A DNA stretch of 64,000 bases from a virus. The notes beneath the pieces were generated by a model. It searched no databases, was not told the origin of the DNA, and saw nothing but the letters and a program-made list of their open reading frames with translations. The translations under genes were made by a program, and so were the position numbers. Of this stretch, positions 131 through 54,583 are shown piece by piece. Each line of letters opens with the position of its first letter. Position 1 is the stretch's first letter. The stretch lies in IMG/VR virus record IMGVR_UViG_3300034072_000758, positions 427,030 to 491,029 of that record. One strand, given 5' to 3'.

Positions 131-248
131 TTAGAACGTGATCGACATCTTGTTCAAATAAATGAACAGAACGATCAGTGATCCGATGGCACTCCAAATG
201 AGGATGCCGAAGATAAGCTTAAAAGCTCGGTCGTAAGAAGATTTCATT
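131..248 (-). CDS. small hydrophobic protein (39 aa, MKSSYDRAFKLIFGILIWSAIGSLIVLFIYLNKMSITF), below ORF-track cutoff
   Basis: Hand translation of the minus strand. Single predicted TM helix. Sits between two tRNA genes. Confidence 0.25.
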
Positions 249-330
249 TTAGTTTCCTCAGTGTTTTCTACGATGATCACTGTTTTTTACACAAATGTCA
301 ATAATATTTAGCGACATAATGTCGCAGTAT

Positions 331-4848: not shown

Positions 4849-4965
4849 TATGGGCTGCTTGGAGTTTAGCTGGGTTCGAATCCCGCTCGATCCACCATTA
4901 AGATTGGGTCGATGTCACCGGAAGACAAGAGCGGGTTCGAGTCCCGTCCAGTCCACACCCTTTAT
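4849..4965 (+). other. two tRNA 3'-half-like fragments (T-arm + 3' acceptor + CCA/CAC: ...GGGTTCGAATCCCGCTCGATCCACCA and ...GGGTTCGAGTCCCGTCCAGTCCACA) with no matching 5' acceptor strand
   Basis: T-loop consensus GGTTCGAWTCC seen twice. No complementary acceptor 5' strand upstream. Confidence 0.4.
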
Positions 4966-21979: not shown

Positions 21980-22567
21980 TTACGACATGTAAATTCTGAT
22001 AGTGTATGTGATTTCCAGAGTTCTGTTCAAGGATTTCTGGACCGGGTGGAAGATACAGTGTGTCAAGAGCTTACCAGCCCCGGCGATTGTTTCATAAGCC
22101 TTGAGACCAATTTCATCAAATACGTATGTACCTTCGGTTGTGCTCGACAAATCGGTAGCCATCTGATCGGCTGGCTCGGTAGCATTGAGCGTACAAACAA
22201 TCACAACATCTGAATAGATGGTGTTCTGAGCATGTTTCACGCGCATGTAGTTGTTTGTTGGATCGGTGTTCAGCGGAGACAAATCATTCACAACCTTACG
22301 ATAAGTTTGGTTATAGATTTGCGCCGTCTTACCGGTTACGTTCGGTGGAAAATATGTGACCGTGCCAATACCAGAAACTACCGACCCACCGTTTCCGAAA
22401 ACCATTTCATGAATGTTCCCGGTTGGACGGTTCGCCAGAGCCAAAGCAAGGGCTTCGCTCATATTTTCGAAATGGATACTGTTGAACTTATCCACCAAAA
22501 CTTCTTTAGTATTCGCGTCAACAATTTTGACATGTCCAACGAATTTCGTTCCAAGCTTATCATTCAT
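21980..22567 (-). CDS. hypothetical (probably structural) protein
   Basis: 195-aa ORF within the fiber gene block. Confidence 0.45.
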   Translation of the reverse strand: MNDKLGTKFVGHVKIVDANTKEVLVDKFNSIHFENMSEALALALANRPTGNIHEMVFGNGGSVVSGIGTVTYFPPNVTGKTAQIYNQTYRKVVNDLSPLNTDPTNNYMRVKHAQNTIYSDVVIVCTLNATEPADQMATDLSSTTEGTYVFDEIGLKAYETIAGAGKLLTHCIFHPVQKSLNRTLEITYTIRIYMS

Positions 22568-23273
22568 TTCGTTTACGCCCGCCGCCGCGTCCTTTACCTA
22601 TTTTGATAGTGACAAAACCATTTTTGGAATTGTAAACATCATAGAATTTTAAATCATTTTCTACACACCAAGATCGTAAGGCTGTTACCTTGACCGTATT
22701 ACCATCGGGTTTAGTAACAATCCAATTCAATGCGTTAGCATTATTTGCCCCGGATTGTGCTTCTCTCATCTTATTTATTGTGTTTTTCGAGTGCTTTTTA
22801 TCTTTTCGTTGTCTCGACCACAACTCACGAGTTTCGGGGCTTGGTATCCATCCAGTTCTCTTATAAATCATCGATCTTGGTTTGGAATGCTTCATCCCTT
22901 TTTTGCCACCACCCAATGATTTCTGCGTGATTACTCTATTTGTTAATATACCACCAGCATCTATACCAAAGCGACCAAACTCTTTTATCAATGCTATTTC
23001 TAAAGCGTAAGCATCATCGCTCAACATTAGCTCATTAATAAAAACGATTTCCGGTTCTACCCCGTCATCCAGCATTTGTTTCAATGCGTTATGCTTGAGT
23101 GAATTTAATCGCTTTACAGCGATCTCTCCCTTTGCTTCTCTTACATGCGAATAGCATCTATCATCGCAACCTTTGCCTATATACAATGGTTGGTGGCGTA
23201 ATAAATTATGATAAAAGTCTATTCGAGGATCACAAATAGCATAGACATAAAATCTATTCTGGTTCGTCCCCAT
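22560..23273 (-). mobile_element. freestanding GIY-YIG homing endonuclease gene
   Basis: N-terminal GIY-YIG motifs (FYVYAICDP...PLYIGKG...R...E), basic C-terminal DNA-binding region, inserted between fiber genes. Confidence 0.75.
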
Positions 23274-23412: not shown

Positions 23413-26400
23413 TTAAACACGATTTTGATCCGAGATGAATATTAATCCATCGTAGACCGGTGTGCCGGTGTCATAATAAGATTGCTCAAACTTTTTGATC
23501 AGATAAACGGTTGTTCCGAAGTTCGGGGCTTTCTTGAAATTGACAGTCAAGCCGCTCGAAGTCGTAGTCACCGTATAATCAACAGTGAAAGTCTTCGCAG
23601 AAAGGACAGGGAACCCCGTGTATCCATCGCTGGTGATCAGTGTTCCATTAGCATATACCAGAGGCTCATAGACCGCCACAGACAGCCCATCCATACTATT
23701 TACACCCATCATAGTGAAAGATTTGTTCGATCCATTCCCAGCAGCACTCACCTTGAATATACGCTCATTGCCGACCGAGGTATTATGTGTCCCGCGACGA
23801 AGACCAGACAATTCGGTAACGCCACCATTTACAGTGATATTATCGAACTCAATCCGCTCACCATTGATCCAAATAACGCCACAACGATCCTGCTGTGTTA
23901 TGCTGCCATCCAAAGCTTGAACGTCAATGACACGTGGGGGAATAAGATCGCCAGTTACCGACAGATAGATCGTGGAATTATTCAGATATAATGGTTGACT
24001 TAATGTTGCCACAGAAGATGTCATGTCAATAAGACGGAATGAATCTTCTCTCGCAACAAGAATTGGTATATCATTTTCTACGGCACCGACGACGCCAGTA
24101 TCGAACGAATATTCTTCCACTCCACCGGCATCATAGTCACCAGTTTCCTTTGGATTGAAGAGATCATATGCTGGTCTCGTCAAAGACAATTTATAGCTTT
24201 CTGGGGTGATCAGCGGTGCGTCAAACACGGTGACTACAATGTTCGGAATATATTCGTCGGTCGATGGTGGTATATAGTCCCCAATACGGATCACTACGCG
24301 GTGAAGTTTGTTGTATTCGTTCACCCCAAATGCTTCAAAAATATCCCCGGCTTGGTCCATAAACACAGTTGGCCCATGCTTACCATAGGTATAACGATCA
24401 GATGAAGTACCAGCAAACCAAGAAACTGTATCCAGAGTTGGTCCAGCTACGTTAGACATGTAAGTAAATTCAGCGGCCTGAGTGTCATACGTAACGACAT
24501 CAGCTTGAATAGCAAAACCAATGTTACTGTTATGAACTCCACCCATTTCTTTACGCATGACCAAACGATAAGTATCCGCGTCTAGCTTTTTCGTCGTAAA
24601 CAACTCAGTGTAACCTACGTTTACTGTGAAGTTATTATCCGAAGTATCGATTACGGTCCCATCAAAACAAAGATCGGTGTTGGCCATATATGAACCAAAG
24701 ATCGTATCGAATTGAGTATCGACGGTACACTCCGCCCCCGGAGTAGAGAACGGCACATACCCCATCCAACCATTAGGGTAAGCAAACATGTTATTCTTGA
24801 CGTGCGGGCAGATATTTGACCACGTTACCGAAGTGCCGCCATTGGCGATGTCGGCAGACACATATTCCTCGTGCGCGAACTGAACGCGGTTCTTGGATAT
24901 GTAGTAATAGTAACGCATTTCCATAGTACCATTTGCGTAGTTCGGTAAGATAACGCCTTTACCATCGTCTCGTCCCGCCATAACCAGCGTATAGCTATCA
25001 TTTAACCACTGTGTTGTATTGGCAATAACGGTATCATCAGTTGCGCTCGGAACATATACTTGATCATTCCATTGTGCTATTGGCGGAAGCTTGAATAGTT
25101 GTAAACGCGAAACGCTATATCCAGTGGTAGCAGACACAAAGAATGAACCGGTATCTTGATCAAGATGTATACAGTTTATGGATGGTCCAATACCAGTCAG
25201 ATCATTGATACGATAAACGATACCACCGACCCTCACAGGGACTTGGTTGACAGTATCGACTTCATACAAAATAAACCACGGGCTATACGAACCATATCCA
25301 GTAGGCACACAGCTACCACCCACCACAAAATAATTTGTATCTGGGATACCAACCGCAAACGTGATGGATTGATAGAAATCATGCGGGACCGATGATGCTG
25401 GACTATCCGCATGAATGGTTACGTTGGCCACGGACTCATATGTGATTGTGCCGGTATTCACGTTCTGGAAAGAGAATGTTGTATCATCATTTCTAAAACG
25501 AATAAACACGGCGGTCGATCCATCTAAAGACAAATGAATTGGTGTATGGCTCCAAACCGAACTTATATCAGCGCTGTTCGCAACGGCATTGGCCACGAAC
25601 AAATAAGCTTCGTCTTGTTCTTCCGGGTAAGGAATATCCAGCGGGTTAGCGGCATCCTGATAAACACCGTCCACACTAATCCAAGTGTATGTCGGCCCAT
25701 TTAGTGACAGAACAACAGAGTTTTCGTCATTCACCAGAGAAGTCGCCATACCAGCGGCATTTGGATCAGTCAGATAGGTGATTTGAATTTCATCCCCCGC
25801 CGACAACACGGCGGTCATCACAACCGATGATCCCGTTACCGTATATTCATCCGGGTTCAGGCGCAGACCGTTGACATCCACGAACAATGTCTCCGGTGCT
25901 TGACTATTGTTTCCAATCACATATGTCGAGTTCGCATGGTAATTAAACACTTCGATCTGAACATTCGCCCCAGCGGTCAATTCGCTGAAAGTTCTCAGCG
26001 TGATTGTGTCGGCTGGTGTATTTGAAATAACGACCGTTTTGTTCCCGTGATCGACTGAATACAGGCTTGGTGAAATACGCTTACCATCAGCAAATGGAAC
26101 AACGACATCCGCATTTTCAGTATAAGATACGAGGTGAACCGTTCCGTTGCTTAAGATGTCGTGATAGCCTTGTACTGGCATAGAAGCGCCGCCAGACATG
26201 AATACGTCAATACTCAAGGTATCGCTCACCGAAGGAGCAACCAACTCTTCTGGGTTATTGCGCTCCATCTGAAAGCCATCTTGTTCGTTGATAGTATCGT
26301 CGCCATCCTGATCGAGAATTGTAAAATCCTTTTCATCCGTGAATGATCCACCATCAATGCGATCATCCTTGATGCCAGTCAGCTTTTCGATGTTTGTTTC

Positions 26401-28734
26401 CTCAAACCCGCCGTAGAAACGAACAACACGATCCGCCGCAGCATTCGCCGCGATATTTTCTTTGACGTAAACCGTAATGACCGTGTTCGCGTCATAAGAA
26501 CCATTAAACAGAATTGTATTGCTCGTTATTGTGTAGTTCTTAACGACTTCGTTGTCAGCGAGCACTTCAACGATCTTATTTGTTACGTCATAGTTGAGAG
26601 GAATGGATTGATTGTAAATGAAGCTCTCCTGAAAAACGACAGGAAGGTGGTCAATTCTATCAAAATTCAAACCAATTTTGATAAAGCGCGTTGGGTTCCA
26701 AGATGCGGGAGTATATTCCGCAAGATCGCGGCCAGTTTTATTGTAATTAGCGTACCAAGTTTTCCAAGGTTCGGTTGTCTGAATGATTGTGAGATCACGA
26801 GCATTCTTCATATCCAACATGCGATATGAGTTCGTGGACTCGTCAAAATATGCTGGGAAATCGAAATCCATAACCGACACCGCAGCGTTGTCGATGTCTG
26901 GCGAAACGATACGCGAGAACTCACGAACCTTAACACGATATGGCTTCACTTCGGTGATGTAATCAATGAGGTTTTGTGTGTTGTCGATAGGCTGAACTGG
27001 TACAGCCTTAAGTGGTTCGTTATATCCAATCAAATTTAGGAACGAGGTCTTGAAAGCCCAAGTGACCTGATCTTGGCTCGAATGAATATAGTGAAGCATA
27101 TCGTAGAACATTGTGTTTTGTTCTTCGATAGTCAAAATTTCACTTCTCAGCGTATCAATCAAATACTTCAATTCAATCGAACCATCACGTTGGTTGAATT
27201 GATCAACGTCACCTTCAAACTTGATCAGGTCTTCGTCGTAGAATTTTTCAGAAAGCTCGATTGTACCGGATTGTCTCGCCACAACGATCCACGCGCCGTC
27301 GATGTGTTCACACCATAGCCATTTGCCGTTATCGTCATCCAATACCTTGACGAATTTGTCTTTGTTATTTACGAAAGAAACGTCGCGGTCTCTAATCGTA
27401 TTATAAGTAACAGCAGGGGGATTCAAATATGAGTAACCCTCAGCGTACCAATCTACATAATTGAAGAAATCAACAGTTCTGTAATTCTGATAATTGATCA
27501 GTTCGTATGCTGTAGAATTGTATTCCCATACTGTCCAGAAATTGTGAGTTTCGCTGTTTGCGTTCACTAGAACCTTGTAGCCTTGAGTTGGGTTCGGGAT
27601 AGCATCGCGTTCTTCCAGCGTATCGACCACAATGTCGTAGGTCTTCACCGGAGAGAATACCAGACCCGGATTATTGACCAAGAAGGAGCTTCCATATCCA
27701 GTCAAGGTTACGTTAGCAAAATAGGAGGCGGCTTGGCTATACGCACAATATCCGAAGCGAGAAGGACCATAGAACGGTGAGTTCGATGGAATCTCGTATT
27801 CAAGCGCAGTATTATCGTCCAGAGAGCCATTTTTTTGCGACGTTCGAATCGTGACACGATTACTGGCACGGACCACTTCGATTTGTATTTCGCCCAGAGC
27901 GTTCCATCCACCGCCTTCTGGCAAAATAGTATTATGGCCATTCACGAGAATGGTCTTGGTTGTCCCGGCGTAATACACAAGGCTCCATGCCTCAGATACA
28001 TTGCTCCCTTTGACCGCACGATTTGCGATCAAGCTATGAGGGACGCCATTGACTTCGGCAAAAGCTACCACAAGACCAATAACGTCATCATCCCCGTTGG
28101 TGCTACCTACGGTAACGGTATGCTTGTAGTTCGACAAAGCATTCGGTGAAACGAAACCAATCATGTTGGCGCTGTTCACAGTGGTTTCGAAACGGTTATT
28201 GACGAAATCCCAAGAAAGCGCTTCGTTTCCCGGTGGAATCACACCAGCATTAATGAAATATTGATTTCCGTTAAATCTCCCCCAAGTATTGAAGATTTCG
28301 GATTGTGTAGGCGTCTGAACAACGTCTTCGTCATTGGCATCTTCTGGGATGTTTTCGGTCGATGCTTCCCACACACTCCACTGAGGATCATCGACATTGC
28401 TAACGCCGTCCACAAGAATTTTATATTTGTTTCCCGCGATTATGGAAGAAACAAAATTTGGATCGAGCAACAGATCATTGCGCTCCTGATAACTGTAGAC
28501 CTTGTGATCATAAGTCGTTTCTGGTGGAAGTTGTTCAATATATTTTTTACCTTCGGCGCGTCTCCACACGAGATATTCCGAATAGGGAGTCGTGGCTACC
28601 AAGCTATCAATGTACGAAGACCTTTCGATAACGAAAGCTTCTTTCGCAAATATGTTATTAGCTATTTTAACAAAGGCTTTTCTTGCGACGGTGAAGTCTG
28701 TGATAGAAAATATGCCACGATTCAATTCATTCAT
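23413..28734 (-). CDS. giant virion fiber / host-recognition protein (1773 aa)
   Basis: Uninterrupted 5.3-kb ORF, Asn/Thr/Ser/Gly/Tyr-rich beta-rich composition, adjacent to other fiber genes. Confidence 0.6.
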   Translation of the reverse strand: MNELNRGIFSITDFTVARKAFVKIANNIFAKEAFVIERSSYIDSLVATTPYSEYLVWRRAEGKKYIEQLPPETTYDHKVYSYQERNDLLLDPNFVSSIIAGNKYKILVDGVSNVDDPQWSVWEASTENIPEDANDEDVVQTPTQSEIFNTWGRFNGNQYFINAGVIPPGNEALSWDFVNNRFETTVNSANMIGFVSPNALSNYKHTVTVGSTNGDDDVIGLVVAFAEVNGVPHSLIANRAVKGSNVSEAWSLVYYAGTTKTILVNGHNTILPEGGGWNALGEIQIEVVRASNRVTIRTSQKNGSLDDNTALEYEIPSNSPFYGPSRFGYCAYSQAASYFANVTLTGYGSSFLVNNPGLVFSPVKTYDIVVDTLEERDAIPNPTQGYKVLVNANSETHNFWTVWEYNSTAYELINYQNYRTVDFFNYVDWYAEGYSYLNPPAVTYNTIRDRDVSFVNNKDKFVKVLDDDNGKWLWCEHIDGAWIVVARQSGTIELSEKFYDEDLIKFEGDVDQFNQRDGSIELKYLIDTLRSEILTIEEQNTMFYDMLHYIHSSQDQVTWAFKTSFLNLIGYNEPLKAVPVQPIDNTQNLIDYITEVKPYRVKVREFSRIVSPDIDNAAVSVMDFDFPAYFDESTNSYRMLDMKNARDLTIIQTTEPWKTWYANYNKTGRDLAEYTPASWNPTRFIKIGLNFDRIDHLPVVFQESFIYNQSIPLNYDVTNKIVEVLADNEVVKNYTITSNTILFNGSYDANTVITVYVKENIAANAAADRVVRFYGGFEETNIEKLTGIKDDRIDGGSFTDEKDFTILDQDGDDTINEQDGFQMERNNPEELVAPSVSDTLSIDVFMSGGASMPVQGYHDILSNGTVHLVSYTENADVVVPFADGKRISPSLYSVDHGNKTVVISNTPADTITLRTFSELTAGANVQIEVFNYHANSTYVIGNNSQAPETLFVDVNGLRLNPDEYTVTGSSVVMTAVLSAGDEIQITYLTDPNAAGMATSLVNDENSVVLSLNGPTYTWISVDGVYQDAANPLDIPYPEEQDEAYLFVANAVANSADISSVWSHTPIHLSLDGSTAVFIRFRNDDTTFSFQNVNTGTITYESVANVTIHADSPASSVPHDFYQSITFAVGIPDTNYFVVGGSCVPTGYGSYSPWFILYEVDTVNQVPVRVGGIVYRINDLTGIGPSINCIHLDQDTGSFFVSATTGYSVSRLQLFKLPPIAQWNDQVYVPSATDDTVIANTTQWLNDSYTLVMAGRDDGKGVILPNYANGTMEMRYYYYISKNRVQFAHEEYVSADIANGGTSVTWSNICPHVKNNMFAYPNGWMGYVPFSTPGAECTVDTQFDTIFGSYMANTDLCFDGTVIDTSDNNFTVNVGYTELFTTKKLDADTYRLVMRKEMGGVHNSNIGFAIQADVVTYDTQAAEFTYMSNVAGPTLDTVSWFAGTSSDRYTYGKHGPTVFMDQAGDIFEAFGVNEYNKLHRVVIRIGDYIPPSTDEYIPNIVVTVFDAPLITPESYKLSLTRPAYDLFNPKETGDYDAGGVEEYSFDTGVVGAVENDIPILVAREDSFRLIDMTSSVATLSQPLYLNNSTIYLSVTGDLIPPRVIDVQALDGSITQQDRCGVIWINGERIEFDNITVNGGVTELSGLRRGTHNTSVGNERIFKVSAAGNGSNKSFTMMGVNSMDGLSVAVYEPLVYANGTLITSDGYTGFPVLSAKTFTVDYTVTTTSSGLTVNFKKAPNFGTTVYLIKKFEQSYYDTGTPVYDGLIFISDQNRV

Positions 28735-35867: not shown

Positions 35868-35899
35868 ATTTGTATTTATATTGAAGAAAACCCCCGAAC

Positions 35900-46350: not shown

Positions 46351-47538
46351 ATAATTTGCTAATATGTTTCTATAATATTTTAAATACAAGTTCGAGTTTC
46401 CCGAAACGTTATTCATAGTTACAATAATATCCAGATTGTCTATGTAAAACCTCACAAATTCGGTAGCATCAATTGGTAATGTGACATCACTTAACATGCT
46501 TATGGAACGAAGTGCCGAGTCATAATAATAAATCTCGTGTGGCGCACTAGGAGAACTTGAATTTTTCATATTTGTTATGATCAAATATTTGTTAGTTCGA
46601 TTTGATATTTTATGTATATGGCTGTTCCCATTACTTATTATGCTTCTGGTATAATTGTTTATATTGCCCTGTAACGAACTCGTCTCATCGGTTACAACGG
46701 ACGTAGAGGGGTTATAAGAAAAATAGGAAAATTGAGGATGCGTTACGCTGCTTGAACCATGATGTAGCAACAATTCATTGTTGGCCGGGGATAACATCGC
46801 GCGAGACGCAAGGTTACCAGATACAAAGGTATATGGGCTTGTGTATGTTTGTTCATACGTGATGCCGGTAGACGTATTGAACTTGAAGAAATATAAATAG
46901 CTTCCATTCATATTCCACATCACAAAAGTGTCGTCATTAATCCATTCTACTTCACACACCGCACCAAATGAGCTATAACCCGGAATACCGGTAGGCACAG
47001 TAATAGTAAAATTAGAAGCCGGGGTCAAAACCGTTACATATACCGTTCCACTAAGAACACTCGCCGTAGCCGCCCAATCATTTGTTTTATGCCAACCATT
47101 TGCGGTAGTCGTACTCGCAGCCGAGGTAGCATGGTAAATAGAGCGTGATGTCGATGTAGAGGCAAATGGAAATGTTGTTAACACATCAGAACCACTTACA
47201 GTTGTCTGTGGATAACCACCAAAAACCGAGGGTTTATGAAGCGCTCTCGTAAAAGTAAAAGGACCACTACTATAAAAACCTGATGAATTTGCGGTATCTT
47301 TCACATACAAATCGGTCCCGGTATTCAACATAATAGCATATCTTATACCAGACACATAATAGCCGCTCGAAGCAGTGGTTGTATCTTTTCCGTATGAATA
47401 CAGGCCATTTACCATTGGTGCTGTACTTGGGTGTACTTTACCATTAAAGCTTACAAAATACGGGGTGTGATCAAACCTCGTACTTGAGGTCTGAGCGGGC
47501 GATGTACTTTTTCCTTCAACCAAATAATGATACAGCAT
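46348..47538 (-). CDS. fiber-like structural protein (Ser/Thr/Tyr/Asn-rich, 396 aa)
   Basis: Composition. ATGA-coupled to the upstream collagen-repeat gene. Confidence 0.5.
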   Translation of the reverse strand: MLYHYLVEGKSTSPAQTSSTRFDHTPYFVSFNGKVHPSTAPMVNGLYSYGKDTTTASSGYYVSGIRYAIMLNTGTDLYVKDTANSSGFYSSGPFTFTRALHKPSVFGGYPQTTVSGSDVLTTFPFASTSTSRSIYHATSAASTTTANGWHKTNDWAATASVLSGTVYVTVLTPASNFTITVPTGIPGYSSFGAVCEVEWINDDTFVMWNMNGSYLYFFKFNTSTGITYEQTYTSPYTFVSGNLASRAMLSPANNELLLHHGSSSVTHPQFSYFSYNPSTSVVTDETSSLQGNINNYTRSIISNGNSHIHKISNRTNKYLIITNMKNSSSPSAPHEIYYYDSALRSISMLSDVTLPIDATEFVRFYIDNLDIIVTMNNVSGNSNLYLKYYRNILANY

Positions 47539-48818
47539 TATGAGAAGTTCTTCCCGATCTGGGTTAGAAGATACGTTAAACCGCCGTCATATGTAAATAC
47601 AGTGTAAACATCTACCGCACCATTCGACGTGGATTGTGTATACGTAACATTCTGGGGGGTTCTGGCCGATGCTGGCCATGTTACCGAAAATGCTCCGCCC
47701 CCCTGCCGCACCGCAACAATCGCAGTATATGTTCTGGATGTCGAAACCGCATTCGTGAAGGCAAAACTTGTAGCCCCGGTTAAGGTAATATTATAAAAAT
47801 AGTTAGCACCTAGATCGAGCGTAACAGTTCCAGACGCACTAGCAACCACCGCAACATTTTCATAAGTTGGCCCCATCGGACCTTGAATACCTTGAATGCC
47901 CTGAACACCTTGAATACCTTGAACACCTTGAATACCCTGAGCACCAGTATTACCTATAGGGCCTTGTATACCTTGTATACCTTGCGGACCTTGTGGTCCT
48001 TGCTCACCTCTAACATACCCAGCGTTCCCAATCGATCCATTGGAATATAGAATATTAAGCCAGCCGGTAATCGCGTTGGCCGAAACAATACCATTACCAT
48101 ATGGACCTGCTGGTCCGGTCGCGCCTTGGTTACCCTGTGGCCCCTGTGGGCCGATCACCGAACCAGCATCAATCGTCGCTCCCGTTGAGAGAGTCAGAAT
48201 AAGGCGTCCTGAGCCATTGACCACTGCTGCTGTAACACTGGTCCCACTTGGACCCACCACGGCACCGGCATTGATCACGGTTCCAGACGTAAGCGTCAGA
48301 TAAAGTTGACCGTTCGTAACTGTAGCAGACTGTACACCAACACCATTGGTCCCAGAAGCCCCATCTAAGCCCTTTACGTAGCCAGCATTGATCGTGAGGC
48401 CGTTGGACATATTAATGAAGAGATCGCCGCTCTGAGCTACGTATGCGCCTTGTACGCCTACACCGTTTTCACCCACAACATCACCCACGTCGATGACCGT
48501 GTTATCAGTCAAAGTGAAAATCAGATTTTGGTTCAGAATTTGCGCGTTGGAAACGCCGACGCCTTGCGGACCAGCCTCGCCAGTAGGAACGATCCCGGCA
48601 TCAATGACTGAGTTATCGGTCATGAGCATCAGAAGATGATTCTCACCGTTTACGTACTCAACGTATACGTTGGCAACACCCACCCCACGCGGGCCTTCTG
48701 GCCCCATAACAACAGGGATTTTATCGACCACGGCATTAGGTATTATCGTGTCGTTTGTATTGTTGAACATAACTGGTGGAGTACCACCGGGAAGACGGGC
48801 ATTGATAATATCTGGCAT
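47538..48818 (-). CDS. collagen-like triple-helix-repeat fiber protein
   Basis: Runs of G-X-Y triplets ([19 protein letters not shown]; [47 protein letters not shown]) encoded by 9-bp tandem DNA repeats at about 47880-47960. Confidence 0.7.
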
Positions 48819-48843
48819 ACAGATATTTATTCAACAACATGAC

Positions 48844-48871
48844 TTGACAAAATATCAGGCTATGCTATCTT
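48844..48871 (+). promoter_or_regulatory. sigma70-like promoter TTGACA-N16-TATCTT driving a non-coding unit
   Basis: Seen directly. Confidence 0.5.
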
Positions 48872-48877
48872 ATACTT

Positions 48878-49346
48878 GTCCCTCCGCTATTGGGTCGTGT
48901 GAACATTCTAGGTAAGTAACACGTTCTCATACAGGCTCGCGGTTAAGTCTATGGGTGATCTGAGTGGCCTAAGATGTATGTGGTTCGATTCCACTATGGG
49001 ATACCAATTCGCTCAAATGAGCAAACGAATTGTTGTTTAAAGGGTGTATGGAGGCACGTTCTGTCCGAGTGGGGACAGAAAGGCGGGGGTTCGAATCCCC
49101 GTTGTCCGAATCAGGTGGTGTTTTCGAGGGAGACCTTGGAAATGTGGGTTCGAGTCCCACAGAGACAGAACAACAGACCAACGGCGAGAGTTGCGTATCT
49201 ATAAGTTCAGGCCCGAAAGGGATAGAGTGAAGCTGAGGATGCCGCGAAGGAAGTAAGCGCGGATTCGATGACGCTGAAACGAATATTACACCCTGACGCT
49301 CTCAATGATTAGGCCCTCGGACATACCATCCGAGGGCCTTTTTTAT
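48878..49346 (+). ncRNA. promoter-to-terminator non-coding transcription unit containing three tRNA T-arm/acceptor-like hairpins (GTGG-TTCGATT-CCAC...GGGATACCA; CGGGGG-TTCGAAT-CCCCG; GTGGG-TTCGAGT-CCCAC) that do not form canonical cloverleaves
   Basis: No ORF with a start/RBS. T-loop consensus three times on the plus strand. One hairpin can form an acceptor/T minihelix (GGACAG...CGGGGGTTCGAATCCCCG-TTGTCC). Strong terminator at 49311-49346. Confidence 0.4.
49311..49346 (+). terminator. rho-independent terminator (AGGCCCTCGG-loop-CCGAGGGCCT + TTTTTT)
   Basis: Seen directly. Confidence 0.7.
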
Positions 49347-49675
49347 ATGTATAGCAACACGTCCATTAAAAGATTATCTATACATTCCACCGAGGGCTTG
49401 TCCGTGTGCGGGAAATTAGTGTACATCAAACGATTATCATTGAACGTAAATTCATACTTATATTCTTGAATACCATTATTTCTAAGCTTATACGTGATGT
49501 CATCAATAAAAATCTCCCAAATAAAAACCGAATCAATTTTGTCTATTTCAATACGTTTATACTTATGTCCATAGCCCTCACGACATTGCGTCCATTTACC
49601 CAAGCTCTCTATTTGCTTAAAAGCATTTTCAAGAGACCTGAGTAAATGTCGTTGTTCCTGCGGTGTGTAAATCAT
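49343..49675 (-). CDS. hypothetical protein (110 aa) translationally coupled to the K+ channel gene
   Basis: ORF 49343..49894 trimmed to the Met at the ATGA overlap. Confidence 0.45.
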   Translation of the reverse strand: MIYTPQEQRHLLRSLENAFKQIESLGKWTQCREGYGHKYKRIEIDKIDSVFIWEIFIDDITYKLRNNGIQEYKYEFTFNDNRLMYTNFPHTDKPSVECIDNLLMDVLLYI

Positions 49676-50812: not shown

Positions 50813-50903
50813 TGGAGGACGTGGTGGGACTCGAACCCACGGTGGTCTATGTTACGACAACAGGTTAAGAGCCTGTCCCTCTCGCCGCTGAGGTGACACG
50901 TCC
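50813..50903 (-). tRNA. atypical type-II (long variable arm) tRNA with lysine anticodon CUU; chimeric derivative of the canonical tRNA-Lys(CUU) at 51517-51593
   Basis: 5' GGACGTG-TCA-CCTC-AGCGGCGA-GAGG-G-ACAGG-CTCTTAA-CCTGT-[TGTCGTAACATAGACCACC]-GTGGG-TTCGAGT-CCCAC-CACGTCC-T-CCA. Acceptor stem, T-arm and anticodon loop are identical to the canonical Lys(CUU). It adds a Ser/Tyr-like D-arm and a 19-nt variable arm. Confidence 0.55.
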
Positions 50904-51366: not shown

Positions 51367-51417
51367 ATAGAAAACCTTTAATATAGATCGTTATCCACAT
51401 CCATATTAAAGGTTATG

Positions 51418-51501
51418 AGGATGTAGAGGGACTCGAACCCCCGATGGTCTTTTGACAACGGATTAAAAGCCCGTCCCTCTCGCCGCTGAGGTGATACATC
51501 C
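51418..51501 (-). tRNA. atypical type-II (long variable arm) tRNA with lysine anticodon UUU
   Basis: 5' GGATGTA-TCA-CCTC-AGCGGCGA-GAGG-G-ACGGG-CTTTTAA-TCCGT-[TGTCAAAAGACCATC]-GGGGG-TTCGAGT-CCCTC-TACATCC-T. The 22-nt D-region TCACCTCAGCGGCGAGAGGGAC is identical to the other atypical tRNA. Confidence 0.55.
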
Positions 51502-51957: not shown

Positions 51958-52081
51958 ATAAAGCAACAAGACGGTGGGGTTCGAACCCACAACCTTTCGG
52001 CTCCGACTTTGACCGCAACGGCTTTTCGCAAACCATTACGTGCGTGTGTATACCCATTCCACCACGCCAAGTTACTTCAAG
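51958..52081 (-). other. unassigned 124-nt spacer inside the tRNA array containing a T-arm-like palindrome GTGGGGTTCGAACCCAC but no foldable acceptor/anticodon arms
   Basis: Could not be folded into a cloverleaf on either strand. All other spacers in the array are 0-15 nt. Confidence 0.3.
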
Positions 52082-52175: not shown

Positions 52176-52292
52176 TGCGTTCGGGAGGATTCGAACCTCC
52201 AACCTCTATACTCGTTTGATCGTCATCCGACCAGTATAGCGGTATCCAACCCTCTAATGGGCTGGCGTGGCTACCAATTTCACCACGAGCGC
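52176..52292 (-). tRNA. atypical 117-nt Leu-like type-II tRNA with a non-canonical anticodon region (CCAGCCC-ATTAGA-GGGTTGG) and an oversized variable region; possible pseudogene, suppressor-like or insert-containing tRNA
   Basis: Acceptor GCGCTCG/CGAACGC (one C-A mismatch), Leu-type D-arm TG-GTG-AAATTGGTAGC-CAC, T-arm GGAGG-TTCGAAT-CCTCC. The middle section has a 7-bp stem, a 6-nt loop and a second 7-bp hairpin CTATACT...AGTATAG. Confidence 0.4.
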
Positions 52293-52302
52293 ATATTACG
52301 AG

Positions 52303-52720: not shown

Positions 52721-53296
52721 TTACTTTACGATCTTGAAACCGTGCTTCTTGTAGTATGGAACGTTCTCGAAATCGATGACCGACACCATAAACTTACCAT
52801 AGCCGTTGCTGACCATGACTTGTTCGACCGTGGCCACGACCTGATCCACGACCGACTTGACCGCCTTCGCCGCTTTGATCTTCGGCTTGATGGTTTCGAC
52901 AGCGGGTTCAACCGACGCTTCATCTTCAATAACGCGCGGCGCGATTTCGGCTGCGACCGTTTCGATGCGAGTGTCGATGACATTGATGGAATCGCCGAAC
53001 TTGGAGACTTCACGATCCAGACGCTTGAGTTCGAGGTTTTCGACCGCGTTGTTATGACCGTTACCATCCTTATGAACGACTTCATCATTCTTCGTCGCGC
53101 CGAGGAAGCAGATGGCTATCAGACGATGGAGGCCGACCTTGGAATGGAGGGCGACGTTCTTGAGACTGATACGGAGCTTATCGCCATCCTTCTGATAGGA
53201 TAGTTCGGTGCCGTCCTTCTTGAAGACGCGACCATCGGAAGTGGCAAGATATTGTTCGTCCGCGAAATAGAAACGGACGCGCTTGACGCTCGACAT
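52721..53296 (-). mobile_element. freestanding HNH homing endonuclease gene adjacent to the tRNA array
   Basis: HNH motif (HKDGNGHNNAVENLE), N-terminal homing-endonuclease-associated domain. 191 aa. Confidence 0.7.
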
Positions 53297-53828: not shown

Positions 53829-54583
53829 TATGTATTCCTAATCCAAATATAAGGAAAGATGTTCGAAACATAGGTTGGGTTTGTAAAAGTCGCTGGGAAC
53901 GAAGAGGCCGGTGTGCTTGTAGAAGTCACACCGATGTTTGTATACGAAGAAGTCGAGGTTCTTCCCAAATATGGATTTCCGCTCGATTGCCAACCATAAC
54001 ACATCAGGTTCATTGGTGAACTCAATAGGAGTGTTACCCAAATCCATTTTCCATAGCAATTAGCCGAATTATAAAAAACAATTTCTTTATTGCCACTGGA
54101 ATTAATAGGTATTTGACCGAGATCATACATTAATGCGGATGGTGCGCCATTGACATTACTGTAAATAGCTATTCGAATATTGGGATTTTGCCACTGATGC
54201 GTTACATTAAAACCGATGCGATTAAATGCTCCACCGTCATGAATAAAAAACGGCATGGCATACAACGTCCCATTTACGAAATAGTTATTTGATAATTGGC
54301 TCGCGTCTACTTGAGGGGAGCCATAAAATAAGCCATTAACAAAACCCGGATGCGTCAAAGCATTTGAGTTTGTTCCGCTCGCCGGTCTACCAGCTAAGTT
54401 ACTTTCACCAAGCTGGGTCCATTCTTGATTTTTATATTCTTCAATATAACCCAAATCAGTGTTGAAGCGGATCATACCCTCAGTCGGCGAAGACGGACGC
54501 TGATCGGTTGAACCCTTGGCCAGTCGAAAAAAACCAGTAGATTCTTGCTTAATGTTACCAGATGAAAGTATACCGTGTTTCAT
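53828..54583 (-). CDS. hypothetical structural protein (251 aa)
   Basis: ORF with an ATGA overlap with the downstream gene. Confidence 0.5.
   Translation of the reverse strand: MKHGILSSGNIKQESTGFFRLAKGSTDQRPSSPTEGMIRFNTDLGYIEEYKNQEWTQLGESNLAGRPASGTNSNALTHPGFVNGLFYGSPQVDASQLSNNYFVNGTLYAMPFFIHDGGAFNRIGFNVTHQWQNPNIRIAIYSNVNGAPSALMYDLGQIPINSSGNKEIVFYNSANCYGKWIWVTLLLSSPMNLMCYGWQSSGNPYLGRTSTSSYTNIGVTSTSTPASSFPATFTNPTYVSNIFPYIWIRNT

What the first reader, a model, noticed from the sequence alone, without database searches (positions are those of the whole stretch)
48844..49346. Defined non-coding transcription unit built from tRNA T-arm/minihelix-like hairpins
- A consensus promoter (TTGACA-N16-TATCTT) and a strong terminator (49311-49346) bracket about 470 nt with no ORF.
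- Three plus-strand T-arm consensus hairpins (GGTTCGATTCC, GGTTCGAATCC, GGTTCGAGTCC) appear, each followed by acceptor-3'-like strands. One ends ...GGGATACCA.
- One unit, GGACAG-aaagg-CGGGGGTTCGAATCCCCG-TTGTCC, can form an acceptor/T-arm minihelix without D or anticodon arms.
- Minihelices are substrates for RNase P, CCA-adding enzyme and EF-Tu and can mimic tRNA.
- Possible readings: degenerate tRNAs; tRNA-like decoys for host tRNA-targeting nucleases; a priming or processing platform; a permuted tmRNA-like gene.
- A fragment GCGGATTCGATGACGCTGAAACG at 49257-49283 faintly resembles the tmRNA 5' GGAUUCGACGGG...GCGAAAC region, but I find no ...ALAA tag reading frame.
Basis: partly seen in the sequence, partly recalled or inferred. 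Interest (0 to 1): 0.65.

Follow-up and report, generated by a model that had tools for sequence, protein, structure and literature searches.

The report
Phage tRNA-mimic non-coding RNA unit
A very large phage carries a self-contained promoter-to-terminator unit of about 470 bases that encodes no protein but a heavily folded RNA built around three tRNA-type 'T-arm' hairpins; it is neither a working tRNA nor a tmRNA, and it most resembles the long-known but still unexplained small stable RNAs of phage T4.

Summary
A promoter (48844-48871) of a class used about ten times in this genome, and a strong terminator (49311-49345), bracket a gene-free 524-nt gap holding three perfect T-loop motifs on the + strand. 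The window has 22 such motifs against 0.26 expected by chance. ARAGORN and Rfam call no tRNA or tmRNA here. Outside the T-arms, the units resemble none of the window's 25 real tRNAs. The predicted RNA has a ~43-bp terminal stem that starts at the predicted +1 (0 of 1000 shuffles and 0 of 657 genomic controls as stable). It also has a 114-nt two-T-arm, four-way-junction domain (49058-49171, z = -4.9). Both favour the + strand. The tmRNA, Y-RNA, host-tRNA-fragment and ordinary-tRNA readings each failed their tests. No homologue could be retrieved, so there is no covariation or expression evidence, and a decayed tRNA operon remains a live rival. The closest described precedent is T4 rnaC/rnaD, whose function is unknown. 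In passing I found a covarying 'three-T-arm' RNA family in other phages. It shows that anticodon-less, multi-T-arm RNAs are maintained by selection, but this locus is not a member. Verdict: a real, probably functional tRNA-mimic RNA, a new variant of a known but unexplained kind.

The parts
48844..48871 (+). Sigma-70-type promoter TTGACA-N16-(TG)c-TATCTT. The predicted +1 is G48878.
   Evidence: 10/12, TG-extended; the same TTGACA-N16-TAnnnT class recurs about 10 times, mostly in intergenic DNA. Every other copy is followed by SD+ATG within 20-45 nt; this one is not.
48878..48950 (+). 5' arm of the long terminal stem. It pairs with 49175-49223.
   Evidence: helices with pair probabilities of 0.6-1.0 and five G.U pairs; duplex -42.4 kcal/mol against shuffles -26.3 +/- 4.2 (0/1000), 0/657 genomic same-geometry controls, and -32.9 on the minus strand.
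48925..49006 (+). Unit A, a weak cloverleaf-like tRNA mimic. It has a 7-bp acceptor, a 4-bp D-like stem with GG in the loop, a poor anticodon-like stem presenting CUG, the T1 arm (loop 48984-48990) and an ...ACCA tail (49003-49006).
   Evidence: ARAGORN reports it only at the 80% threshold; below Rfam tRNA detection; the non-T part has no similarity to real tRNAs (p = 0.65); no excess stability (z = +0.4).
48999..49040 (+). Stable hairpin (CAAUUCGCUC/GAGC..GAAUUG) that overlaps the ACCA tail and is followed by UUGUUU.
   Evidence: z = -3.3; 1 of 200 shuffles as stable.
49058..49171 (+). T2-T3 domain, a four-way junction. It comprises an 8-bp closing stem (49058-65/49164-71), the T2 minihelix arm (49073-49107), a 10-bp hairpin with a GAGA loop (49120-49143) and the canonical T3 arm (49144-49160).
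   Evidence: -49.8 kcal/mol, z = -4.9, 0/200.: -43.0 kcal/mol with both T-arms enforced; the minus strand reaches only -35.3; inverted repeat I2.
49175..49223 (+). 3' arm of the long terminal stem.
49224..49302 (+). 3' domain with two small hairpins and weak structure. It contains CGCGGAUUCGA (49258-49268), which is complementary to the 3' half of the T2 arm.
Evidence: z = -0.25., I5.
49311..49345 (+). Intrinsic terminator: an 11-bp hairpin plus T6. It is strong only on the + strand.
   Evidence: On the minus strand the hairpin is followed by AAUCAUU.

Best explanation
This is a dedicated, probably early-expressed, non-coding transcription unit of a roughly 517-kb T4-like phage.

**What is shown**
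- Host-type RNA polymerase signals bracket the unit: a promoter at 48844-48871 and a terminator at 49311-49345. Transcription would start at about 48878.
- The ~470-nt RNA is predicted to fold with its 5' end paired to 49175-49223 in a ~43-bp interrupted stem.
- That stem encloses three tRNA-derived modules: a weak cloverleaf ending ...ACCA (unit A), and a compact 114-nt domain carrying two T-arms and a GNRA-capped hairpin in a cloverleaf-like four-way junction with no anticodon loop.

**What is inferred**
- The long stem and the acceptor/T-arm stacks would make the transcript a substrate for the host's stable-RNA maturation enzymes (RNase III on the stem; RNase P, 3' trimming and CCA-adding enzyme on the tRNA-like modules).
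- Processing would yield one to three stable small RNAs that present the tRNA 'top half' (acceptor/T-arm and elbow) but cannot decode.
- Their likely mode of action is mimicry: binding or occupying a factor that recognises tRNA by its T-arm, elbow or acceptor end. Candidates include a host tRNA-directed nuclease or toxin, a modification or processing enzyme, or a phage RNA-repair protein.

The existence and fold of the RNA are the better-supported part. The target of the mimicry is a guess.
For: **Transcription signals**
- The promoter belongs to a recurrent class that elsewhere always precedes SD+ATG. Here no SD or ATG follows.
- The terminator works on the + strand only.
- The neighbouring tail-fibre gene has its own late-type AATAAATA box 5 nt before its ATG, as other structural genes do, so the gap is not needed as its leader.

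**Non-coding status**
- The 525-nt gene-free gap compares with other gaps of about 27-117 nt.
- The internal ORFs have no Pfam hit.

**Selection on the T-arms**
- All three T-loop motifs are perfect. Flanking sequence shows no similarity to any of the 25 real tRNAs (p = 0.35-0.99), while real-tRNA controls give p = 0.00.
- Direct repeats between units are confined to the 9-13-nt T-loops, so the units are not recent duplicates.

**Structure**
- The terminal-stem duplex is -42.4 kcal/mol (0/1000 shuffles, 0/657 genomic controls as stable). It begins at the predicted +1, has five G.U pairs and reaches only -32.9 on the other strand.
- The T2-T3 domain has z = -4.9, and -49.8 against -35.3 kcal/mol between strands.
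- The whole transcript has z = -3.1.
- GC skew is positive here and negative in the flanking minus-strand genes.

**Precedent**
- T4 rnaC is a 139-nt stable RNA with a terminal stem, a long arm and a canonical T-arm (z = -4.6). It is transcribed from the tRNA region and its role is unknown.
- Covarying three-T-arm and two-T-arm RNAs occur in other phages.
- tRNA-derived RNAs are used against host nucleases in the AcrIIIA1 system (PMC11662646).

**Assembly**
- The sequence is identical in a second assembly.
Against: - No homologue was found anywhere. GenBank phages gave nothing. IMG/VR gave nothing. The metagenome pattern scan gave only unrelated tRNA clusters.
- There is therefore no covariation, and no evidence that the element is conserved even in related huge phages.
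- There are no expression data.
- Unit A and the 3' domain fold no better than shuffled sequence.
- The terminal-stem arms were chosen after seeing the MFE, which inflates the statistic somewhat.
- The MFE does not form the T-loops. The T-arm-constrained fold costs about 7 kcal/mol.
- No partner protein for a tRNA mimic was identified in the window.
Confidence: 0.55

Rival explanations
1. Decayed tRNA operon. A former + strand cluster of 3-4 tRNA genes, with its own promoter and terminator, has degenerated. What remains are pseudogenes, and the T-arms are simply the most recognisable relic. The RNA, if made, has no function.
For: - Unit A still draws as a cloverleaf with a 7-bp acceptor stem.
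- The genome is full of tRNAs and of other uncalled tRNA-like pieces.
- No conservation could be shown.
- Unit A and the 3' domain have no excess stability.
- tRNA gene remnants are common in prokaryotic genomes (PMC9897764).
Against: - Decay deep enough to erase all similarity to tRNAs outside the T-arm should also have hit the 30 fixed T-loop positions, yet all are intact.
- T2 to T3 spacing is 59 nt, too short for a whole tRNA.
- The terminal stem and the T2-T3 domain are far more stable than chance and are strand-specific. Pseudogene decay does not predict that.
- A compact phage genome keeps a 524-nt gap with an intact consensus promoter and terminator.
Confidence: 0.25
2. Non-canonical but working tRNA(s). 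Unit A (anticodon CUG, Gln-like), and perhaps others, are unusual decoding tRNAs that standard detectors miss.
For: - ARAGORN at 80% threshold draws unit A with U33, A37, GG in the D-loop and a 7-bp acceptor stem.
- This genome's real tRNAs often encode CCA, and ...ACCA follows unit A.
Against: - It lies below the Rfam tRNA threshold even at E <= 10, apart from T-arm fragments.
- The anticodon stem has 2 Watson-Crick pairs, 2 G.U pairs and 1 mismatch. The T-stem has 4 bp. Position 8 is C and position 14 is C instead of U8/A14. In the ARAGORN register the tail reads U-ACCA rather than N-CCA.
- A normal tRNA-Gln(CUG) already exists at 707-778.
- Units B and C overlap each other and have mismatched acceptor stems.
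Confidence: 0.07
3. Y-RNA-like (YrlA-type) RNA. A long terminal stem binds a Ro60/Rsr-type protein, and a tRNA-like module recruits other factors.
For: - The architecture is a terminal stem plus tRNA-like modules.
- YrlA RNAs mimic tRNA and occur in phages (PMC4201824).
- A related 637-kb phage locus encodes DUF2828, recalled as TROVE-related (that relationship rests on my own knowledge).
- RlaP, an RNA-repair-associated nucleotidyltransferase family, lies 3 kb away.
Against: - No Rfam Y-RNA or YrlA hit at E <= 10.
- The GNCGAA(N)G motif is absent.
- No TROVE/Ro60 domain was found in any scanned ORF of the window.
- At about 350 nt the stem-enclosed RNA is much larger than known Y RNAs.
Confidence: 0.05
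4. tmRNA (standard or permuted two-piece), or a host-tRNA 3' fragment such as an attP core or a captured piece.
For: - The T-arm followed by ...ACCA, and GGAUUCGA at 49261, look superficially tmRNA-like.
- Huge phages are known to encode tmRNAs (PMC7162821, listed).
Against: - ARAGORN's default run finds no tmRNA.
- Four Rfam tmRNA models match only the 15-18-nt T-arms, at 8.7-12.1 bits against gathering scores of 47-84.
- Relaxed ARAGORN tags (VPPLLGRVNILGK*, ADSMTLKRILHPDALND*) lack the hydrophobic ...AA end.
- There is no G3:U70.
- The GGAUUCGA piece is just the complement of the T2 arm.
- There is no exact match of the T1 or T2 3' parts in one genome each of 185,579 species.
- No integrase lies nearby.
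Confidence: 0.03

Closest known systems
Phage T4 small stable RNAs rnaC (species 1, 139 nt) and rnaD (species 2, 119 nt)
   Same: Both are phage-encoded non-decoding RNAs linked to the tRNA repertoire. rnaC has a terminal stem, a long arm, a hairpin and a canonical GGUUCGAAUCC T-arm next to its 3' end, and it is very stable (z = -4.6). Its function is unknown (PMC3014915).
   Different: There is no sequence similarity. The T4 RNAs are single-T-arm (rnaC) or T-arm-less (rnaD) and are co-transcribed directly after tRNA-Arg. This unit stands alone between protein genes with its own promoter and terminator, has three T-arms and is wrapped by a ~43-bp stem.
Three-T-arm and two-T-arm RNAs of phage tRNA clusters
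   Same: The layout matches the T2-T3 domain: a closing acceptor-like stem, a T-arm in the D-arm position, hairpin(s), and a T-arm near the 3' closing strand, with no anticodon loop. The structure is under selection (21/30 pairs compensatory; covariation 0.651 against 0.207).
   Different: The covariance model gives members 83-133 bits and this locus 35.9 bits. Tandem ordinary tRNAs reach 24-31 bits. The GGG..CCC hairpin and the third T-arm are missing here. Those RNAs sit inside tRNA arrays.
Canonical tRNA (Rfam RF00005)
   Same: The T-arm sequences are canonical: G53, T54, Psi55, C56, R57, A58 and C61. Unit A has a 7-bp acceptor stem. An AAGG(C/U) variable-loop-like motif lies 5' of T2.
   Different: There are no D- or anticodon-arm signatures, no detector call, and no similarity to the genome's own tRNAs outside the T-arm.
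Bacterial and phage Y RNAs (YrlA)
   Same: A terminal stem plus a tRNA-like module containing a T-arm. Some are RNase P and CCA-adding-enzyme substrates (PMC4201824).
   Different: No Rfam hit, no GNCGAA(N)G motif, no Ro60 gene in the window, and three times the size.
mascRNA / MALAT1-type tRNA-like 3'-end elements and minihelix substrates
   Same: An acceptor/T-arm stack without an anticodon, which RNase P and CCA-adding enzyme could in principle recognise (general knowledge).
   Different: Those are eukaryotic. There is no Rfam match. Here there are several modules inside a long stem rather than one at a 3' end.

Membership tests
tRNA (RF00005 / ARAGORN) | Reaches the covariance-model gathering score (29 bits) or the ARAGORN default threshold | tested here: not met
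   Searches give no call in 48819-49342. In one search, at E <= 10, only T-arm fragments match and the tRNA hits score below 12 bits. The 25 real tRNAs score 39.6-78 bits.
tRNA (RF00005 / ARAGORN) | Canonical T-arm (5-bp stem, TTCRANY loop, G53-C61) | tested here: met
   T3 is fully canonical. T1 and T2 have canonical loops and 4 bp plus one mismatch.
tRNA (RF00005 / ARAGORN) | D-arm and 5-bp anticodon stem with a 7-nt loop, and the U8/A14 core | tested here: not met
   Unit A has C8 and C14 and a 2-WC/2-GU/1-mismatch anticodon stem. Units B and C have mismatched acceptor stems and overlap; there is no similarity to real tRNA cores.
tmRNA (RF00023, RF01849-51; ARAGORN) | Model score at or above gathering, with a tRNA-like domain formed by the 5' and 3' ends and G3:U70 | tested here: not met
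   8.7-12.1 bits against 47-84, T-arm only; none. The acceptor candidates give C3-G70 or U3.G70.
tmRNA (RF00023, RF01849-51; ARAGORN) | Tag reading frame ending in a hydrophobic ...(L/V)AA followed by a stop | tested here: not met
   Only at 50-70% thresholds does ARAGORN report tags (VPPLLGRVNILGK*, ADSMTLKRILHPDALND*, ASLYENVLLT*).
YrlA / bacterial Y RNA | Rfam model match, or the GNCGAA(N0-1)G Ro-binding motif in the terminal stem | tested here: not met
   (no hit at E <= 10). (motif absent from 48878-49346).
YrlA / bacterial Y RNA | Encoded next to a Ro60/TROVE gene | tested here: not met
   Searches find no TROVE domain in the scanned ORFs of the 64-kb window. The rest of the 517-kb genome could not be examined.
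   35.9 bits. The first T-arm of the model aligns to non-T-arm sequence. Tandem tRNAs score 24-31 bits. Searches give the member range.
T4 rnaC-type stable tRNA-like RNA | Sequence homology to rnaC/rnaD | tested here: not met
   Searches find no blastn match to any GenBank phage. By eye, one search shows no similarity beyond the T-loop.
T4 rnaC-type stable tRNA-like RNA | Stable, processed RNA species in infected cells | not testable with these tools
   This needs RNA-seq or Northern blots of infected cells.
tRNA gene fragment from integration (attP/attL-type) | Identity of the T-arm plus acceptor 3' strand to a full tRNA gene of the host or of the same genome, with an integrase nearby | tested here: not met
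   Searches give no exact match in genome contigs. In one search the best in-window match is 20 of 32 positions, confined to the T-arm. Searches show no integrase. Only exact matches and only this window could be tested.

The most novel reading that the evidence does not exclude
Phages maintain a broad, so far unnamed class of anticodon-less, multi-T-arm 'tRNA top-half' mimics. The class would include T4 rnaC, the covarying three- and two-T-arm RNAs found here, and this stem-wrapped three-module unit. These RNAs would be matured like tRNAs and would act as decoys or sponges for host factors that recognise tRNA by its elbow or acceptor end, for example tRNA-directed defence nucleases or toxins, or RNase P, RNase R or PNPase. 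This locus would be a stand-alone, early-expressed version in a huge phage that is heavily invested in tRNA biology.
Probability: 0.15. Interest if true: 0.8.

Novelty: new variant of a known kind. Interest (0 to 1): 0.5.

Why it matters
Phage T4's small stable tRNA-like RNAs have had no known function for about fifty years. Large phages are now known to fight their hosts over tRNA, through anticodon nucleases, tRNA-depleting defences and phage tRNA repertoires. A self-contained unit with a strong promoter, making an RNA that keeps only the T-arm and acceptor side of tRNA, would be a clean and genetically separable test case for non-decoding tRNA mimicry in phage infection. Together with the covarying multi-T-arm families noticed here, it suggests the phenomenon is widespread and overlooked, because tRNA finders discard these elements and Rfam has no model for them. 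If it is only a decayed tRNA operon, the finding is ordinary.

Tried and rejected
**Homologue searches (none found a homologue)**
- blastn, near and distant modes, against 50,697 GenBank phages gave no match.
- Exact and degenerate pattern scans of IMG/VR for the T2 minihelix and for GAGTGG...T2...T3 gave none.
- Flanking-protein synteny failed. The ion-channel homologues lie in non-syntenic loci. The 396-aa neighbour has no hits. The 110-aa neighbour has no homologue among 5.8 billion proteins. The gp13-like gene finds only 22-28% relatives.
- RlaP has 45-55% relatives on 540-637-kb contigs, but their neighbourhoods are not syntenic.
These were mostly compact ordinary tRNA clusters or other families, and nhmmer/blastn found nothing homologous beyond the T-arms.

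**Leads that turned out to be something else**
- An 88% match over 34 nt to T1 in L027-L088 is an unrelated orphan T-arm RNA downstream of tRNA-Arg.
- L183/L184 carry an ordinary tRNA-Glu whose ends resemble 48878... and ...49006. The 130-nt 'split tRNA-Glu' idea was dropped because that fold has z = +0.24 and there is no D- or anticodon-arm match.

**Interpretations tested and rejected**
- tmRNA, Y RNA and mascRNA: no Rfam support.
- Intron-containing tRNA: ARAGORN -i gives only nonsense calls.
- Host-tRNA fragment or attP: no match.
- Membership of the three-T-arm family: rejected on score.
- Minus-strand function: the T-loops read correctly only on the + strand, and the stem and the T2-T3 domain are 9.5 and 14.5 kcal/mol weaker on the minus strand.

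**Technical failures**
- A crude ORF map was useless for gap statistics because it counted spurious ORFs inside the region.
- A quick genome-wide z-score scan with 20 shuffles was noisy. Two apparent outliers fell to z = -1.3 and -2.5 on proper testing.
Full report
**1. Setting**

- The window comes from a very large T4-like phage. A neighbouring protein is recorded on a 516,805-bp JGI contig.
- The window encodes 25 tRNAs and CysRS, AspRS and SerRS. It also encodes a T4 gp13-like protein, UvsX/RecA-like and gp32-like proteins, ribonucleotide reductase and several tail-fibre-like genes.
- The flagged interval is the 524-nt gap 48819-49342. It lies between two minus-strand genes: a collagen-repeat tail-fibre-like gene (47538-48818) and a 110-aa orphan gene (49343-49675).
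- An independent gene caller left this gap empty. The other intergenic gaps in the same 9.5 kb are about 27-117 nt.
- The sequence is identical in a separate Logan assembly.

**2.

- The promoter-like site (48844-48871, 10/12, TG-extended) and the terminator (49311-49339 plus T6) are as described.
- GGTTCGANTCC occurs 22 times in the window against 0.26 expected. Sixteen copies lie in called tRNAs. Three of the six orphans lie here, at 48982, 49088 and 49147, all on the + strand.
- The mechanical ORFs of 66-76 aa in the gap lack a Shine-Dalgarno sequence and any Pfam hit.

**3. It is a genuine, non-coding transcription unit**

- TTGACA-N16-TAnnnT, often with TG, recurs at about ten mostly intergenic sites in the window.
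- In every other case an SD and an ATG follow within 20-45 nt, and a terminator hairpin often lies just upstream. At 48844 the same promoter runs straight into structured, SD-less sequence.
- The terminator has a T-run only on the + strand.
- The adjacent tail-fibre gene carries AATAAATA 5 nt before its ATG. The same T4-late-like arrangement is seen before other structural genes: TATAAATA-N5-ATG at 35880 and 55949, and GATAAATA-N6-ATG at 54583. So the gap is not needed as that gene's leader.
- GC skew turns positive across the gap, while the flanking minus-strand genes are negative.

**4. It is not a tRNA, tmRNA, Y RNA or host fragment**

- ARAGORN (default) and Rfam (gathering) call nothing here.
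- At E <= 10, Rfam reports only 15-18-nt T-arm matches to tmRNA models, at 8.7-12.1 bits against gathering scores of 47-84.
- ARAGORN at 80% threshold draws three sub-threshold cloverleaves.
  - Unit A (48925-49002) has a 7-bp acceptor, a 4-bp D-like stem and a poor anticodon stem presenting CUG. It lacks U8/A14.
  - Units B and C have mismatched acceptors and overlap each other.
- Outside the T-arm, none of the units resembles any of the 25 real tRNAs more than shuffled sequence does (p = 0.35-0.99). Real-tRNA controls give p = 0.00.
- Relaxed tmRNA calls give implausible tags. The 'tmRNA-like' GGAUUCGA piece is simply complementary to the 3' half of the T2 arm.
- The YrlA motif and Rfam Y-RNA models do not match, and no TROVE gene is present in the window.
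- The 3' parts of T1 and T2 have no exact match in one genome each of 185,579 species.

**5. What the RNA looks like**

Folding 48878-49346 gives an MFE of -164.6 kcal/mol with z = -3.1. Four features carry the signal.

- **(a) Terminal stem.** A long interrupted stem pairs 48878-48950 with 49175-49223.
  - It has about 43 bp, pair probabilities of 0.6-1.0 (mostly above 0.9) and five G.U pairs, and it starts exactly at the predicted +1.
  - Its duplex energy of -42.4 kcal/mol was matched by 0 of 1000 dinucleotide shuffles (-26.3 +/- 4.2) and by 0 of 657 same-geometry arm pairs across the window.
  - The minus-strand equivalent reaches -32.9.
- **(b) Hairpin.** A stable hairpin (48999-49040, z = -3.3) overlaps the ACCA tail of unit A.
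- **(c) T2-T3 domain.** The 114-nt domain 49058-49171 folds at -49.8 kcal/mol, with z = -4.9 and 0 of 200 shuffles as stable. The minus strand reaches -35.3.
  - With both T-arms enforced it forms a four-way junction at -43.0 kcal/mol, still well below the shuffle mean of -35.3.
- **(d) Terminator.**

Unit A alone (z = +0.4) and the 3' domain (z = -0.25) show no excess stability. Repeats between units are confined to the 9-13-nt T-loops.

**6. Argument for function over decay**

- All 30 fixed T-loop positions are intact, while everything else that defines a tRNA is unrecognisable. Neutral decay deep enough to do the latter would be very unlikely to spare the former (inference).
- The T2-T3 spacing of 59 nt cannot hold a whole tRNA.
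- Two strand-specific, statistically unusual structures wrap the modules.
- The promoter and terminator are intact in a compact genome.

What is missing is decisive, however. No homologue was retrievable, so there is no covariation, and there are no expression data. I therefore put 0.55 on a functional tRNA-mimic RNA and 0.25 on a relic operon.

**7. Comparison with what is known**

- T4 annotates rnaD (119 nt) and rnaC (139 nt) right after tRNA-Arg. rnaC has a terminal stem, a long arm, a hairpin and a canonical T-arm, with z = -4.6. The review PMC3014915 states that their biological roles are unknown.
- Searching for the architecture also uncovered a three-T-arm RNA of about 140-150 nt in phage tRNA clusters.
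  - Its structure covaries strongly: 21 of 30 pairs have compensatory changes, and 90.3% of cells are paired against 67.0% in shuffles.
  - The covariation score is 0.651 against 0.207 (0 of 500 shuffles), and the slid controls give 0.10-0.17.
  - No Rfam family matches it.
- A related two-T-arm version exists.
- These families show that selection maintains cloverleaf-shaped RNAs whose D-arm and anticodon-arm positions are occupied by T-arms.
- The T2-T3 domain has the same layout but scores only 35.9 bits with the family model. Members score 83-133 bits and tandem tRNAs 24-31 bits. It is therefore not a member.
- tRNA-like candidates are a recognised but uncharacterised category among phage structured RNAs (PMC10690425).
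- tRNA-derived RNAs are used with a phage protein against host nucleases in the AcrIIIA1 system (PMC11662646).

**8. Mechanism (inferred)**

- Host RNA polymerase would transcribe the unit early.
- The long stem is the kind of substrate RNase III cuts. The acceptor/T-arm stacks are what RNase P, 3' trimming enzymes, CCA-adding enzyme, TrmA and TruB recognise. Both statements rest on established knowledge and were not tested here.
- The products would be stable tRNA 'top-half' mimics that cannot decode and that act by occupying a tRNA-recognising factor. The identity of that factor is unknown.

**9. Verdict**

This is a real feature and a defined non-coding unit. It is a new variant of a known but unexplained kind (phage tRNA-like stable RNAs). 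Interest is moderate at 0.5, limited by the lack of conservation and expression evidence and raised by the wider multi-T-arm class it points to.

Noticed in passing
L035:5137-5284(-), L068:1893-2030(-), L071:3929-4073(-), L076:4852-5006(+), L083:7477-7614(+), L089:6497-6644(-), L090:5215-5352(-), L094:1723-1876(+), L122:6481-6630(+), L171:2731-2880(-), L120:3651-3804(+): A conserved 'three-T-arm' RNA of about 140-150 nt sits inside phage tRNA clusters. It has a closing acceptor-like stem, GAG(U/C)GG, T-arm 1, a 4-bp hairpin, T-arm 2, an AAUAGGG..CCCGC hairpin, and T-arm 3 abutting the 3' strand (often followed by CAC or ACCA). Covariation is strong: 21/30 pairs are compensatory, and the score is 0.651 against 0.207 in shuffles, 0/500. 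No Rfam 15 family matches it. It is possibly an undescribed RNA family.
   Followed up: partly
L025:2387-2485(+), L050:476-577(+), L079:1910-2008(+), L033:4834-4933(+), L064:5313-5412(-), L065:3705-3804(+), L070:~170-268(+): A related two-T-arm RNA of about 100 nt has its T-loops exactly 50 nt apart and a 7-bp closing stem. It shares the GGGTAGCTCCC hairpin with the three-T-arm family.
   Followed up: partly
window 4851-4957 (+): Two more orphan T-arm elements lie just upstream of tRNA-Ala(ggc). The first is a ~47-nt element ending ...GCTCGATCC-A-CCA with a possible G3:U70. The second is a ~55-nt unit (AGATTGG-23 nt-T-arm-CCAGTCC). Neither ARAGORN nor Rfam calls them. They are the second-best hit of model R1 in the window, at 31.4 bits.
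   Followed up: partly
window 52180-52300 (-) and 51975-52080 (-): Two further uncalled tRNA-like elements lie inside the minus-strand tRNA array. One is a ~120-nt Leu-like molecule with a ~45-nt extra arm (T-loop at 52187). The other has the T-arm GTGGGTTCGAACCCCAC.
   Followed up: no
window 51417-51501 (-) and 50813-50903 (-): Two tRNAs called Lys (UUU, 85 nt; CUU, 91 nt) have class-II-type long variable arms and 6-bp anticodon stems. This is unusual for lysine tRNAs. Normal-length Lys(UUU) and Lys(CUU) genes are also present.
   Followed up: partly
window 35880, 55949, 54583, 48818 (minus-strand gene starts): Structural genes carry a T4-late-promoter-like (T/A)ATAAATA box only 5-6 nt upstream of the ATG, with no Shine-Dalgarno sequence. 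This suggests leaderless or near-leaderless late mRNAs. Genes behind the TTGACA-N16 promoters have clear SD sequences.
   Followed up: partly
window 9262, 17939, 19341, 33209, 40054, 44350, 45907 (+); 41968, 17047 (-): A recurrent promoter class, TTGACA-N16-(TG)TAnnnT, occurs in intergenic DNA. It often sits directly after a terminator hairpin and 20-45 nt upstream of SD+ATG.
   Followed up: partly
L023:20460-20760(+) and L023:14950-15030(+): A related 637-kb phage contig also has orphan T-loop elements in structured intergenic gaps of 280-370 nt. The same locus encodes a DUF2828/DUF7788 protein.
   Followed up: no
L089:8272-8707(-): A GOLLD RNA (Rfam RF02032, 176.7 bits) lies in the same phage tRNA cluster that carries a three-T-arm RNA.
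   Followed up: no
L143:3070-3282(+), L155:474-645(+), L214:2373-2540(-): Metagenome contigs contain tandem arrays of short repeats (period about 16-33 nt), each containing a GGTTCGA(C/G)TCC motif. These are repeats rather than tRNAs, and their nature is unknown.
   Followed up: no
L027-L088 group, e.g. L088:4940-5070(+): In a group of viral contigs, tRNA-Arg(UCU) is followed by a ~95-nt orphan T-arm RNA ending ...GGTTCGATTCCACAACTGGTACCA. This is the position rnaD/rnaC occupy in T4, but there is no megablast match to GenBank phages.
   Followed up: partly
window 52721-53296 (-), 22560-23273 (-): An HNH endonuclease ORF lies next to the minus-strand tRNA array, and a GIY-YIG-domain ORF lies elsewhere. 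These are possible homing endonucleases, like segB in the T4 tRNA region.
   Followed up: no
window 23413-28734 (-): A 1773-aa ORF has no Pfam match at E <= 0.01.
   Followed up: no
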